A stretch of 64,000 nt of DNA, taken from contig OY970364.1 of NCBI GenBank assembly GCA_963718565.1, forward strand, positions 2,080,001-2,144,000, written 5' to 3'. The stretch's first letter is position 1; the number at the start of each line of letters is the position of its first letter. This DNA is from an uncultured Verrucomicrobiae bacterium (GTDB taxonomy: Bacteria > Chlamydiota > Chlamydiia > Chlamydiales > Rhabdochlamydiaceae). A program made the position numbers. Shown one piece after another: positions 36,991 to 39,900 of the stretch.

Positions 36991-39900
36991 CTGGTTCGAT
37001 TCCAGTTCTGGCCATATTTTTCGAAGAAAAATAAGCCAGAAAAAAAGCCACCTGCGTGGCTTTTGTCTGGAATCGAAGTGAAGCGGCATGCAGGCCGCGA
37101 ACCGGCTTTCAGGACGACGACGCACGGCCAGTGCGCATCGCCTGAAAGGATTCCAGTTCTGGCCAAACCTTTTACGTTCTTGCCGGCGTAAATGATCCGG
37201 AATATGTCCGGAGTTCTAGATTTCCTTAAATCACCCAAACGGGTGCTTCAAAAATTGTTTTGAGGCGCCAATTTGGAGTGTCTGTTCCGGATATATTCCG
37301 GATTTTACATAAGCACTCCCTTTTAAACAGCTAATTCTCAAGAGAGAAGATGGTACCGTCCTCAGGACTATGTATCCTCCTCGCGGGTTAAAAGGAGTTA
37401 AAATGGGTCATATTAGAGAAAGAGATTTAAGCGATGGCAGCAAGAGATTTTATGCCGAAGCACAGCTTAAAGGTGGTGGTCCGAGATTGACGGCTACATT
37501 CAATCGAAAAACCGATGCAAAGCTTTGGATTCAGAAAACTGAAACTGAGATGCGCTGTGGCAAAAACCAGCTTATCGCTGCATCAAGAAAGCATATCTTT
37601 AAAGAGGCCGTACAAAGGTATTCCAAAGAGCAAAAAATCTCAGTCATTAAAAGAGGTCATTTACATTGGTGGGAAAAGGAGTTGGGCCACTATTTCCTCA
37701 AAGACATTCGCCCATCATTAATCGCAGAAAAAAAGCAAAAACTGTTAACGGAAACCACCGAAAAAGGTGTGGTGCGTAGCGGAAGTACCTGCAACAGGTA
37801 TCTTGCTACTATTAGCCATGTTTTAAGCATTTGCGAGAAACAATGGGAATGGATCGAAGGCAACCCTGTTAAAAAGATTTCCAGAGAAAAAGAATCTCGT
37901 GAGCGTACACGCTTCTTAAGCCCTGAAGAAAGGCAGGCTCTCCTAAAAGCTTGCAGAGAGAGCGAAAACCCCTACTTACTCACCTTTGTAGTTCTTCAAT
38001 TGTCCACTGGATGCCGTTACAACGAAATCCGTCATTTATGCTGGACGGATGTCGATTTGAATAAAGGAAAGATCACCATCAGAGAATCCAAGAATGGCGA
38101 TATGCGTTCTGTTCCTGTCTTGGGGTTTGTATTGGAATTGCTTCGACAGCTTGCAATGGGTCAAACCTCGCTTGGATATCTTTTTCCTTCTCAAGATAAG
38201 ACTCTTCCTCTTGATCTTCGTAGAGCTTACAGAACAGCGATTAAAAGAGCCAAATTAAGAGACTTCCGCGGGCATGATTGTAGACATTCTTATGCCACCG
38301 AAATGCTCGCTCAAGGTTTATCTCTTGGAGAAATAGGCCACCTGCTGGGTCATAGGAGCGTGTCCATGACGCGACGCTATGCTCATCTTGTTGAATCACG
38401 GTCTATTGCCGCTGTTGCTAAAATGTCCGATCAAATTTTTAAGGGGGTTGAAAATGCATAAAACTAGATGGTATCCACAAAACCAACAGGAGGATTCTAG
38501 CGTTCCCTCAAAACCTACTAAAACTAAAAAATTCAGCTTAGATAAAATTTTAGATCGAAGATATAGCTCGATTCTTAAACAGATGCAAGCGTCTTCAGCT
38601 GAAGAAATAATCCCTCCTGCAGATGAGAGGGATTTTGAAGCAAGGATCACAAAGTATGAAGAGGATATAAAGAGTAAGCTTTTCGGATTCATGTATTATT
38701 TGAAGGAGAGCAAAACTCTTAAACGAGATTCAAGTGTGGAGACCATTTTTGAAAATAAGAATGTGATCAATATGGTTAAATTGCGATTCACAATTCAGTG
38801 TCTAACACAAGCCTTGAAGCTATTAAAATGCTCTAAAAAGAGCATTTTAGAGTCCTCGTTAATCGGTCTATATCAGTCACCTCTTAAGTTTTATGTTGTT
38901 GATTATGTGAATGATTGGATAGCAGAGGCTTTTGAAAAAAATGGTCATATTTTTGACTCATAATTTGATGTCAATCAACGACAGTTTTTTTAATTTTCTG
39001 TTTCGTCAATCTGAAGCTTGTTTTGGTTTTTTAAGGAAATCTCCGGCAAGAGAATCCGTAAACATAACAAGGAGAAGATTTGTGAACGAACTTAGTCAAC
39101 AGTATCTCACGAAAAGACAGGCGGTGGAGAAATATGCATTTCTTACTGAAAACATGTTGAAAAACCTTTTGTTTAAAAATCCTGGCGGATTTAGAGACAA
39201 AGTTGCCAGGAAAATAGGTCGACGCATTGTTTTGGATGAGAAAGCGCTTCTGCTGTTTATCGCTGATAGTAAGTAGAAGGGTAAATGATAAAGGTTCCCA
39301 AATATAAAAAAGCTTTACATGCAGGAATTTTATTCAACAGCATAGCTTTAGATCCTAATCGTTACCCACAAGCTCTTAAACATACCCTGCTCCCCACAAC
39401 ATGTCTTTGAATCTCGTATAGCCTTTCCAGATCGTTTGCCACCCAGGCTCTCCATCCGATTTGCGTCCTATAAAGCCGCTTAAGCGCGCAAGGCAACGCC
39501 AATAATCTCTCACCGTTTTAAGCTTCACTCTCAGCCGCTGCTCCATAAGCATAATACAGCACTGGGGTACTACTTCTTCGACTCGCGTTTCTGGCGACAA
39601 TCGGCAGTGCTCTCTCATCGCCAAGAGTTGTGTTGCTATCACTCCAATAATTCCAAATAATGCAAGAATTCGGCCCAAGTTATTTCTAGCTCCACTTCAC
39701 CAGAGAACTCTTTACCGTTGGCCTTCACAAACAGCGTGGATTTGCACTTGGCCGTCTGTCGACGGATCCATGGGAAAAGACGCTCTTGCGCTCCATTGAT
39801 CTCCACTTTGCGATCATGTCGCGCCTGCACTATAAACTTCCATCCATTCCCAGTATAGTCAGCAGTAGGCCCAAGCCCATGTGCCCTCACCGCACTGGCG

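What a model noticed while it worked through the whole genome (the two positions that open the first line are those of the whole stretch)
37035..37165. Conserved structured modules that copy the 3' tail of the upstream tRNA gene and its complement
A family of 100-150-nt non-coding modules sits 20-40 nt behind tRNA genes: tRNA-Phe (2117035-2117165, best copy), tRNA-Tyr (99511-99627) and tRNA-Lys (six tandem units, 2001630-2002413). Each has a conserved three-way junction (P1, GAAGTGA, P2, GAACCGG, P3); its 3' end repeats tRNA positions 57-73 and its 5' end carries the complement, split by a hairpin, so the ends change with the neighbouring tRNA. It matches no Rfam family and is spread over many genera of the family. 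Function unknown: folded attachment-site-like module (my reading) or RNA gene.
Evidence so far: Sequences. G000-wide CM scan: 7 hits at E<=1, all at the known loci. Rfam: none. Model R2: 22 of 41 family genomes, 19 of 151 phylum genomes, families f1 12/21, f5 5/19, f15 1/3 only. Covariation: 95.2% of 708 cells paired against 75.2% shuffled and 30-48% slid; 20 of 24 pairs with double changes. 36 first units in 21 genomes: tail copy >=13/17 in 25 (>=16/17 in 17), 5' arm >=7/9 in 30; ten tRNA isoacceptors. Units bound gene islets in G242, G013, G001.
(Added by a program. Inside this text positions count along the whole contig: contig position 2,080,001 is position 1 of the stretch shown here. "Call 12" and the like, gene names such as g00115 and contig names such as C1 are that model's own, and its searches are not shown. 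The text may have been shortened before it was handed on; [...] marks where a part breaks off. The agent that wrote the report below was given it as the finding of a first reader that could run no searches.)

Follow-up and report, generated by a model that had tools for sequence, protein, structure and literature searches.

The report
Structured insertion module behind tRNA genes
A 130-base, hairpin-rich, non-coding DNA module sits just behind tRNA genes of environmental chlamydiae, carrying a copy of the tRNA's last 17 bases and its complement, and it behaves like a small inserted element that marks where gene islands dock.

Summary
At 37035-37165 a 131-nt module lies 20 nt behind tRNA-Phe. 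It ends with an exact copy of tRNA positions 57-73 and starts with the complement of that tail, split by a hairpin, around a junction GAAGTGA-P2-GAACCGG-P3. My covariance model finds it in 54 of 101 Parachlamydiaceae genomes and 20 of 150 genomes of the phylum. No Rfam family matches.

New evidence favours a DNA-level reading:
- **Filled and empty sites.** Seven relatives join tRNA-Phe directly to the same integrase-island arm. The window and two other genera have exactly spacer + module + 17-nt tail in between.
- **Sharp boundary.** The tail copy starts at position 57 in 25 of 25 intact units.
- **No strand signal.** Helices are almost purely Watson-Crick, and both strands fold equally well.
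- **Arms track the tRNA.** The 5' arms match the tRNA's own tail better than the module's own copy.
- **Island borders.** Units, each behind a partial tRNA 3' half, border islets of accessory genes.
- **tmRNA too.** One unit in this genome matches the tmRNA tail.

Best reading (about 0.5): a non-autonomous, self-complementary module that recombines at tRNA and tmRNA 3' tails. The enzyme and any intermediate are unknown. An RNA gene is not excluded (about 0.2), because no usable expression data exist.

The parts
36942..37014 (+). tRNA-Phe(GAA); no encoded CCA
   Evidence: ARAGORN; Rfam tRNA 73.2 bits
36998..37014 (+). tRNA positions 57-73 (GATTCCAGTTCTGGCCA), the 'tail' that is repeated
   Evidence: it starts right after the T-loop GGTTC
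37015..37034 (+). Spacer, a weak A/T palindrome (TATTTTTCGAAGAAAAATAA). In other loci this place often holds a terminator-like hairpin with a T-run.
37035..37041 (+). Arm a, GCCAGAA, the complement of tRNA positions 65-71
37043..37064 (+). P1.1 hairpin (AAAAGCCAC CTGC GTGGCTTTT) that splits the two arms. It is 97.7% paired across 76 units.
37067..37074 (+). Arm b, CTGGAATC, the complement of tRNA positions 57-64
37075..37081 (+). Junction strand GAAGTGA. Its GAA continues the complement into the T-loop TTC (positions 54-56).
   Evidence: invariant in alignment A2
37083..37098 (+). P2 hairpin (GCGGC ATGCAG GCCGC)
   Evidence: 96.9% paired, all 5 pairs with double changes
37099..37105 (+). Junction strand GAACCGG. 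Its GAACC is the complement of the near-universal GGTTC (positions 52-56).
   Evidence: invariant in alignment A2
37106..37148 (+). P3, long form (CTTTCAGG ... CCTGAAAG). Other units have a 3-4 bp stem with a GNA triloop instead.
37149..37165 (+). Exact copy of tRNA positions 57-73. It pairs with arms a and b to form P1.
37166..37402 (+). Left arm and leader of the integrase island. In five relatives it abuts tRNA-Phe directly.
   Evidence: alignment A1
37403..38461 (+). Tyrosine integrase of the island. Relatives of this island are flanked by a 44-nt tRNA-Phe 3' half, which places the crossover in the anticodon loop.
   Evidence: Pfam PF00589, E = 8e-31

Best explanation
The module is a small, non-coding, non-autonomous DNA element, or portable recombination site, specific for the 3' tail of tRNA and tmRNA genes.

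**What one unit is.** A unit consists of the tail (positions 57-73), a palindromic spacer, an inverted copy of the tail split by hairpin P1.1, and a conserved core (GAAGTGA, P2, GAACCGG, P3). Almost every base of it is self-complementary.

**How it behaves.** It enters or leaves a tRNA gene by recombination confined to the 17-bp tail. The tRNA stays intact, and a second tail is left at the far end of the unit. Units multiply in tandem. They also travel on the tRNA-proximal side of genomic islands that integrate in the anticodon loop, so they end up at the borders of accreted islets.

**Shown here:**
- insertion/absence differences between genomes, bounded by the 17-nt tail;
- the sharp boundary at 56|57;
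- specificity for tRNA and tmRNA tails;
- tandem amplification;
- position at islet borders;
- conservation of the fold through compensatory changes, with no strand bias.

**Inferred, not shown:**
- that the fold forms in DNA (as a single strand or a cruciform) and mimics the duplex tail as a recombination substrate;
- that a recombinase acts in trans;
- that a circular or single-stranded intermediate exists.
For: 1. **First filled/empty set.** Five loci with an 86-95% identical integrase (L040, L041, L043, L045, L050) read tRNA-Phe...GGCCA followed directly by the island arm (consensus ACCTTTTACGTTCTTGCC). The window has exactly 150-151 extra bases, spacer + module + tail copy, at that junction. 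Four of those five genomes have no unit anywhere.

2. **Second set, other genera.** G099 and G069 are in the same genus and have no R1 hit. They read tRNA-Phe followed directly by TTTCTCTTGCCGGAGA. G086 and G014 have spacer + unit + 17-nt tail in between, and their units are of different types.

3. **The island's own integrase does not explain this.** Its islands are flanked by a 44-nt tRNA-Phe 3' half that starts in the anticodon loop (G103, G105, and an orphan copy in G000). The module offers only 17 nt.

4. **Boundaries of the tail copy.** In 25 of 25 units with a copy of at least 16/17, identity to the tRNA starts at position 57. It ends at position 73 (+0 to 2) in 13. In the other 12 it runs on into a repeated spacer.

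5. **Tandem arrays repeat the whole unit.** G032 has six perfect 148-nt repeats of tail + spacer + module.

6. **Association with tRNA tails.** Of 80 non-redundant units, 45 lie behind a complete tRNA, 18 behind another unit and 6 behind a partial tRNA 3' piece. One G000 unit matches the tmRNA tail 17/17.

7. **No RNA strand signature.**
   - P1.1: 641 Watson-Crick, 4 G-T, 2 A-C, 13 other cells.
   - P2: 304 Watson-Crick, 10 G-T, 3 A-C, 7 other cells.
   - Arms: G-T 29 against A-C 51.
   - Fold energy of plus against minus strand: -51.0 against -50.9 kcal/mol; plus is lower in 8 of 19.
   - Many pairs flip CG<->GC or AU<->UA without wobble intermediates.

8. **A terminator often sits between tRNA and unit.** By a crude script, 19 of 46 spacers hold a GC hairpin plus T-run and 17 more hold a T-run/A-run palindrome.

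9. **Patchy, multi-copy distribution.** 0 to 22 hits per genome, 5 of 7 genomes of the same genus.

10. **Islet borders.** Islets of accessory genes, with no integrase, are bordered by partial tRNA 3' half + spacer + unit.
Against: - No recombinase can be named. No protein recurs beside units: 198 ORFs behind the last unit of each locus gave no cluster spanning more than 2 genomes.
- Y1 transposase shows no association. By my tally it is in 20 of 54 unit-bearing genomes and 15 of 47 unit-free ones, and G000 has none. G000 has no IS110-type gene either.
- No excised circle or same-species empty site was seen. All filled/empty pairs are between different genomes, so loss by deletion between the two tails fits as well as gain.
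- How both arms come to match a new tRNA is unexplained. P2 loop types track the tRNA type across genera by eye in the table, which suggests retargeting is rare.
- 15 of 46 first units lack a good tail copy, yet they keep arms that match the tRNA. That is not what a simple insertion with a target duplication predicts.
- The conserved junction strands, the GNA triloops and the tRNA-like stacking of P1a/P1b are also what one expects of an RNA.
- A dsDNA circle of 130-150 bp would be hard to form.
Confidence: 0.5

Rival explanations
1. The module is a structured non-coding RNA that mimics the top half of a tRNA. Arm a with the tail forms an acceptor-like stem. Arm b with the tail forms an extended T stem. 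P1.1 stands where the D and anticodon arms emerge. The RNA would be made by read-through from the tRNA or from its own promoter. It could act in tRNA 3'-end processing, tRNA repair (as a spare 57-73 fragment held on a splint), or as a decoy.
For: - The multi-helix fold is conserved, with 28 of 30 pairs showing compensatory changes.
- The junction strands are invariant.
- Short P3 forms carry GNA triloops.
- The break in the 5' strand falls at 64|65, close to the acceptor/T-stem boundary of a tRNA.
- Orientation is always that of the tRNA.
- There is a slight excess of G-T over A-C in P1.1 and P2, 14 against 5.
Against: - Wobble pairs are about 1.4% of cells in P1.1 and P2, and the arms show the opposite bias, 29 G-T against 51 A-C.
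- Both strands fold equally well.
- A terminator-like hairpin often separates the tRNA from the unit.
- No promoter-like site was found at the unit in the window.
- Only 3 of 43 tRNA genes in G000 have a unit, and about half of the family's genomes have none, so the module cannot be a general processing signal.
- The filled/empty junctions and the islet borders need a DNA-level event in any case.
Confidence: 0.2
2. The module is a passive by-product with no activity of its own. Units would be leftovers of the tRNA-proximal arms of integrated islands and of unequal crossing-over at a recombination hot spot. They would be carried from genome to genome only because islands that integrate in the anticodon loop bring their own tRNA 3' half plus whatever follows it.
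For: - Every islet border examined is partial tRNA 3' half + spacer + unit, so units do ride on islands.
- Array periods and junctions vary. Lys and Leu-taa arrays repeat truncated units.
- Distal tail copies decay.
- No dedicated enzyme was found.
Against: - Leftovers would not keep five helices through compensatory changes across 22 genera and 3 families.
- Nor would they keep both arms complementary to ten different tRNA tails and to tmRNA.
- The 56|57 boundary is identical in 25 of 25 units.
- Units of three different types sit at the same kind of tRNA-island junction.
Confidence: 0.12
3. The module is a host- or island-selected DNA feature. It would serve as a landing pad that offers extra tail sites behind the tRNA, and/or as a hairpin-rich insulator that stops read-through from the strongly transcribed tRNA into island genes such as the integrase.
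For: - In unit-free relatives, contigs from RNA libraries join tRNA-Phe to the integrase leader. Contigs cannot prove a single transcript, and the DNA may also be present in such libraries.
- Units and spacers are rich in terminator-like hairpins.
- Islets lie right after tail copies.
Against: - An insulator needs neither arms nor a tail that match the tRNA.
- The islands seen use the anticodon loop, not the 17-nt tail.
- About half of the family does without units.
Confidence: 0.1

Closest known systems
Integrative elements that target the T-loop to 3'-end part of tRNA and tmRNA genes, and their integrase-less derivatives (cis-mobilisable elements flanked by att sites). Named from my own knowledge. 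A 17-bp repeat at a tRNA-Gly island of Protochlamydia is reported in PMC548262 (abstract and passages read).
   Same: - A direct repeat of the tRNA 3' end bounds the insert, and the tRNA stays intact.
- Inserts accrete in tandem behind one tRNA.
- tmRNA is also a target.
   Different: - The whole insert is only 100-150 bp and encodes nothing.
- It also carries an inverted copy of the target, and a conserved multi-hairpin core that covaries.
- No matching integrase is known.
Folded single-stranded recombination sites: integron attC sites and the CTX-phage attP hairpin used by XerCD (recalled knowledge, not tested here)
   Same: - Two inverted copies of a target-like sequence can fold into a stem that imitates the duplex target.
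- After integration one expects target, then loop, then inverted copy, then body, then target. That is the order seen here.
- Arrays of short units and gene cassettes (many of them toxin-antitoxin pairs) lie behind one fixed site.
   Different: - The target is a tRNA tail, not attI or dif.
- No R/L-box consensus (GTTRRRY) is present.
- The core sequence is conserved, unlike attC.
- Folding in DNA and a recombinase are not shown.
Bacterial MITEs and palindromic repeats (Correia, RPE, REP/BIME) (recalled knowledge)
   Same: - Small, non-coding, multi-copy, with a strong predicted fold, patchy among relatives, no transposase inside.
   Different: - Insertion is restricted to one defined place, behind position 73 of tRNA or tmRNA genes.
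- The 'terminal inverted repeat' equals the target and changes with it.
- The repeat is 17 bp long.
- No autonomous partner with the same ends was found.
IS200/IS605 ends, where DNA 'guide' bases next to a hairpin pair with the target and cleavage site (recalled knowledge)
   Same: - Complementarity to the target sits next to a hairpin.
- The conserved junction strands contain GAA and GAACC, the complement of the invariant GGTTC that precedes the insertion point.
   Different: - G000 has no Y1 transposase, and the family shows no association.
- The complementary stretch here is 17-20 nt, not 4-5 nt.
- There is no covariation of GAACC where the tRNA or tmRNA reads AGTTC (L037; tmRNA unit).
tRNA-like RNA modules (tmRNA tRNA-like domain, bacterial Y RNA YrlA) (recalled knowledge)
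   Same: - The 5' and 3' ends pair into an acceptor-like stem that stacks on a T-like stem.
   Different: - There is no T-loop. It is replaced by a three-way junction.
- There is no Rfam match, no expression evidence, and no wobble signature.

Membership tests
Any Rfam 15 family | Match to a curated covariance model | tested here: not met
   Only the tRNA matches at gathering scores. At E up to 10 on 36900-37400 the best non-tRNA hit scores 18.8 bits against a cut-off of 65.7.
tRNA-targeting integrative element / att site (T-loop to 3'-end class) | Direct repeat of the tRNA 3' part bounding the insert, with the tRNA left intact | tested here: met
   Exact 17-nt repeat in the window. It starts at position 57 in 25 of 25 intact units.
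tRNA-targeting integrative element / att site (T-loop to 3'-end class) | Occupied and empty sites that differ by exactly the insert plus one repeat | tested here: met
   Alignments A1 and A4: three occupied and seven empty junctions, all between different genomes.
tRNA-targeting integrative element / att site (T-loop to 3'-end class) | A cognate integrase, in the element or shown to act in trans | tested here: not met
   There are no ORFs in the unit. The neighbouring integrase uses a 44-nt site that starts in the anticodon loop. No protein recurs beside units.
tRNA-targeting integrative element / att site (T-loop to 3'-end class) | An excised circular form, or excision and integration observed | not testable with these tools
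MITE | Terminal inverted repeats, a short target duplication, and an autonomous relative with the same ends | tested here: inconclusive
   An inverted repeat of 15-17 nt (arms against tail) is present but is split by P1.1 and equals the target. The duplication is 17 bp. No autonomous partner was found.
Integron attC site / cassette array | R''/L''-L'/R' boxes with GTTRRRY at the crossover, and an IntI integrase with attI | tested here: not met
   No GTTRRRY box stands at the unit ends (sequence). IntI was not searched for. Only the array-and-cassette layout resembles an integron.
IS200/IS605-type single-strand transposon end | A Y1 (HUH) transposase in the genome | tested here: not met
   PF01797 gives 0 matches in G000. 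It is in 35 of 101 family genomes with no association with units.
Structured non-coding RNA gene | Covarying secondary structure | tested here: met
Structured non-coding RNA gene | Strand-specific signature: G-U tolerated, A-C not, and one strand folds better | tested here: not met
Structured non-coding RNA gene | A transcript with defined ends | tested here: inconclusive
   Four RNA runs hold only contigs of relatives without the unit. Nothing covers 37044-37117. This is not evidence of absence.

The most novel reading that the evidence does not exclude
The units are the attachment sites of an integron-like or CTX-like system that uses tRNA and tmRNA tails as its fixed site.

As a single strand, each unit would fold so that its arms and tail rebuild the duplex tRNA tail, held on a conserved branched core that a still unknown recombinase recognises. 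The complementarity to positions 52-73 (GAACC, GAA, arm b, arm a) would act as a built-in guide that decides which tRNA is used.

Units and small gene cassettes would then be shuffled behind tRNA genes. That would make a second, independent invention of cassette arrays built on folded DNA.
Probability: 0.2. Interest if true: 0.9.

Novelty: new variant of a known kind. Interest (0 to 1): 0.68.

Why it matters
- **A new layer at tRNA genes.** tRNA genes are the classic docking sites for genomic islands. These data add a tiny, structured, non-coding unit that copies the tRNA tail in both orientations, multiplies in tandem, and lies at the borders of accreted islets in environmental chlamydiae.
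- **If it recombines on its own.** It would be the smallest site-specific integrative element described. Its ends would be set by the target rather than by a transposase.
- **If the fold is used as single-stranded DNA.** It would extend the integron/CTX principle to tRNA genes.
- **Practical use.** Units explain assembly breaks and variable repeats behind tRNA genes in Parachlamydiaceae genomes. They also mark island borders for annotation.

Tried and rejected
- **Expression.** No run holds half of the stretch's sampled words. Four RNA runs were laid. They gave only contigs of relatives that join the tRNA to the integrase leader, skipping 151 or 155 nt, and nothing on 37044-37117. This is uninformative for the unit.
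- **More empty sites.** I compared tRNA-Leu(tag), tRNA-Leu(taa) and tRNA-Ser(tga) between G000 and its genus mates. The downstream flanks are not syntenic, so no boundary could be read.
- **Candidate enzymes.**
  - Y1 transposase: no association, and none in G000.
  - IS110 type: none in G000.
  - Reverse transcriptase: one gene, far from any unit.
  - Tyrosine recombinases: 15 matches in G000, with no obvious T-loop-specific candidate.
  - Serine recombinase: ten copies of one 1.96-kb IS. Two lie 48 nt and about 680 nt behind units. I read this as IS accumulation in island DNA and did not follow it further.
- **Neighbouring ORFs.** No cluster spans more than 2 genomes.
- **Plasmid and phage collections.** No blastn match.
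- **Viral contigs.** At least 120 loci matched the pattern. The 80 that I scored all failed the covariance model, so they are chance matches.
- **P1.1 loop as a break point.** Two truncated units end in that loop. Other arrays break elsewhere, so I dropped the idea.
- **GAACC as a guide.** It does not covary where the tRNA or tmRNA reads AGTTC. I keep it only as an observation.
- **Literature.** Six full-text searches found no description of such a module. I read passages of PMC548262 (17-bp repeats at a tRNA-Gly island) and PMC5217627 (an unrelated motif behind archaeal tRNA genes). Supplements were not consulted.
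Full report
**What is there.**
- The window comes from a 2.28-Mb genome with 43.6% G+C. Record titles of the nearest integrase loci place it in the Parachlamydiaceae.
- tRNA-Phe(GAA) lies at 36942-37014.
- A 20-nt A/T palindrome follows. Then comes the module at 37035-37165, in this order:
  - arm a (GCCAGAA);
  - hairpin P1.1;
  - arm b (CTGGAATC);
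  - GAAGTGA;
  - hairpin P2;
  - GAACCGG;
  - hairpin P3;
  - an exact copy of tRNA positions 57-73.
- That 17-mer occurs only twice in the window at up to 3 mismatches, against 0.21 expected by chance.
- The fold is far more stable than shuffled sequence, z = -5.65.
- No Rfam family matches.

**The family is real and conserved.**
- The bare motif CGAAGTGA-N8-30-GAACCGG gives 112 matches in 30 of 61 family genomes. The reversed control pattern gives 6.
- A MAFFT alignment of 17 units from ten kinds of tRNA gave a consensus fold with 30 pairs, 21 of them with compensatory changes.
- The covariance model built from that alignment (R1) hits 54 of 101 family genomes in 22 of 40 genera. It hits 20 of 150 genomes of the phylum: f1 12/21, f7 6/19, f10 1/3 and none elsewhere, for example 0/26 in f4.
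- On 76 distinct units, 90.5% of cells pair, against 69.6% after shuffling and 29-46% after sliding. 28 of 30 pairs show double changes. This alignment was fitted to the model, which favours the structure.
- Of 80 non-redundant units in the loci I held, 45 lie directly behind a complete tRNA on the same strand, 18 behind another unit and 6 behind a partial tRNA 3' piece. Two are at a locus edge, and the script placed 9 nowhere. By eye, three of those nine are tandem copies and one lies behind a partial tRNA-Tyr.

**New point 1: the unit is an insertion bounded by the tail.**
- The gene 238 nt behind the module is a tyrosine integrase.
- Five loci with an 86-95% identical integrase have tRNA-Phe joined directly to the same leader. 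The window differs by exactly 150-151 bases, which are spacer + module + tail copy. Four of those five genomes have no unit at all.
- A second, related island arm gives the same picture in other genera. G099 and G069, of the same genus and with no R1 hit, have the direct junction. G086 and G014 have spacer + unit + 17-nt tail in between, with units of different types.
- The island's own integrase does not explain this. In G103 and G105, and in an orphan copy in G000, its islands end with a 44-nt tRNA-Phe 3' half that starts in the anticodon loop. The module offers only 17 nt.
- Whether the unit entered after the island, or the island docked at the unit's far tail, a recombination event confined to positions 57-73 is needed.
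- Loss by deletion between the two tails fits the empty sites as well as gain fits the filled ones. All comparisons are between genomes.

**New point 2: the boundary is sharp.**
- In 25 of 25 units whose tail copy is at least 16/17, identity to the tRNA begins at position 57, right after the T-loop GGTTC.
- Identity ends at position 73 (+0 to 2 nt) in 13 units. In the other 12 it runs on into a repeated spacer, meaning that another, sometimes truncated, unit follows.
- In G032, six perfect 148-nt repeats each consist of tail + spacer + module.

**New point 3: the arms follow the tRNA, not the copy.**
- In 46 distinct first units the tail copy is at least 13/17 in 31 and at least 16/17 in 25.
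- The arms match the tRNA's own tail at 14.5 of 17 positions on average. They match the unit's own copy at 12.7.
- The arms fit the tRNA better in 20 units, equally in 24 and worse in 2.
- The GAA of GAAGTGA extends the complement into T-loop positions 54-56. GAACC of GAACCGG is the complement of GGTTC.
- Folded as DNA together with the tRNA end, the arms pair with the tRNA's own tail across the palindromic spacer.
- So tail, spacer and arms form one long interrupted palindrome, and a unit as a whole is almost fully self-complementary.

**New point 4: there is no RNA strand signature.**
- P1.1 has 641 Watson-Crick cells, 4 G-T, 2 A-C and 13 other. P2 has 304, 10, 3 and 7. In the arms, G-T (29) is rarer than A-C (51).
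- The plus and minus strands fold equally well, -51.0 against -50.9 kcal/mol. Plus is lower in 8 of 19.
- Many pairs switch CG<->GC or AU<->UA with no wobble intermediates.
- About half of the spacers hold a terminator-like hairpin with a T-run between the tRNA and the unit (a crude classifier).
- No promoter-like site stands at the unit in the window.
- I take this as evidence for pairing that matters on DNA, or on both strands. It does not exclude an RNA.

**New point 5: context.**
- Where several units lie kilobases apart, the DNA between them carries accessory genes. These include toxin-antitoxin pairs, RhuM, Bro-N, glycosyl- and methyltransferases, a small metabolic cluster and an IS607-like gene. 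There is no integrase.
- Each border is a partial tRNA 3' half that starts in the anticodon loop or the variable arm, followed by spacer and unit.
- Units therefore ride on the tRNA-proximal side of islands that integrate in the anticodon loop. This gives them a route between genomes and explains their place at islet borders.
- G000 also holds a ninth hit, at contig 827047-827197. Its arms and tail match the tmRNA tail (GATTCTCTCCACCTCCA, 17/17). It sits behind a degenerate tmRNA 3' piece, 125 kb from the tmRNA gene.

**Interpretation.**
- The best-supported reading is a non-autonomous DNA module that recombines at the 17-bp tail of tRNA and tmRNA genes, amplifies in tandem and travels with islands. 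I give it about 0.5.
- Shown: the bounded insertion/absence differences, the sharp boundary, the target specificity, the amplification, the conserved fold and the lack of strand bias.
- Inferred: that the fold forms in DNA and imitates the duplex tail, that an enzyme acts in trans, and that an intermediate exists.
- Weak points:
  - no enzyme was found;
  - there is no within-population polymorphism;
  - there is no account of how both arms come to match a new tRNA;
  - some units keep their arms but have lost the tail copy.
- One possible reason why the arms stay perfectly complementary is templated correction within quasi-palindromes during replication. This is my inference only.
- The RNA reading (a mimic of the top half of a tRNA) keeps about 0.2. 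The junction strands, the triloops and the break at 64|65 look RNA-like, and expression could not be tested.
- A passive by-product (0.12) does not fit covariation across three families.
- A landing pad or insulator (0.1) does not explain the arms.

**Comparison with known systems.**
- The module works most like an att-flanked, integrase-less integrative element. In layout it resembles the folded attachment sites of integrons and of CTX phage. It meets the defining tests of none of them; see the membership table.
- It is not a standard MITE. A true MITE with terminal inverted repeats in G054 has merely swallowed a unit-like core.
- I found no description in six full-text searches.
- I rate it a new variant of a known kind (site-specific, non-autonomous mobile DNA). 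There is a 0.2 chance that it is a guide-bearing, folded-DNA cassette system, which would be new in kind.

Noticed in passing
G000 contig 827047-827197 (outside the window): A unit of a variant core type. Its arms (TGGAGGTG, GAGAGAAT) and 3' end match the tmRNA tail. It sits behind a degenerate tmRNA 3' fragment and a terminator, 125 kb from the tmRNA gene (952243-952610).
   Followed up: partly
L111-L118 (G054, eight dispersed places): A repeat of about 260 nt with roughly 26-nt terminal inverted repeats (TATACCGGAAATGATTCAAAAGTTGG...). It embeds a degenerate tRNA-tail-like piece plus arms, P1.1, GAGGTGA, P2 and GAACTGG. None of the eight copies is next to a tRNA. It looks like a MITE that captured a unit.
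   Followed up: partly
G000 contig 635372-635388 (+) and 1539891-1539907 (-): Two orphan copies of the tRNA-Phe 3' half. The first is joined directly to a truncated copy of the island's left arm, with no module. The second is preceded by a sequence like the island's right end. They suggest rearrangement between island copies, and may explain why no right-end repeat lies in the window.
   Followed up: partly
G000 contig, ten places, e.g. about 100304-102258 and 827245 onward: A 1.96-kb insertion sequence with a serine-recombinase (Resolvase-domain) ORF, in ten copies at least 98.6% identical (nine at 99.4% or more). Two copies lie 48 nt and about 680 nt behind units (the tmRNA-type unit and the Tyr unit).
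   Followed up: partly
window 40188-41741 (-): A HigB-like toxin gene (41457-41741) next to a 416-aa protein with an IrrE/M78 peptidase domain (40188-41438), inside the island behind the integrase. Probably a toxin-antitoxin pair carried as cargo.
   Followed up: no
window 37194-37212 and 37284-37302: Two similar small palindromes in the integrase leader (TCCGGAATATGTCCGGA and TCCGGATATATTCCGGA), conserved in all six aligned island copies. They could be protein-binding sites of the island.
   Followed up: no
L029 (G036) and L077 (G065), within 1.6 kb behind units: ORFs with a reverse-transcriptase-like N-terminus, similar in the two genomes. They may be group II introns lodged behind the hairpin-rich units.
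   Followed up: no
L031 (G032) 13640-13912 and 10691-10843: A second core subtype with a longer P2 (GTTTTTGC GTTA GCAAAAAC) and CAACCGG in place of GAACCGG. It occurs at both ends of the Phe array and resembles the core of the tmRNA-type unit.
   Followed up: partly
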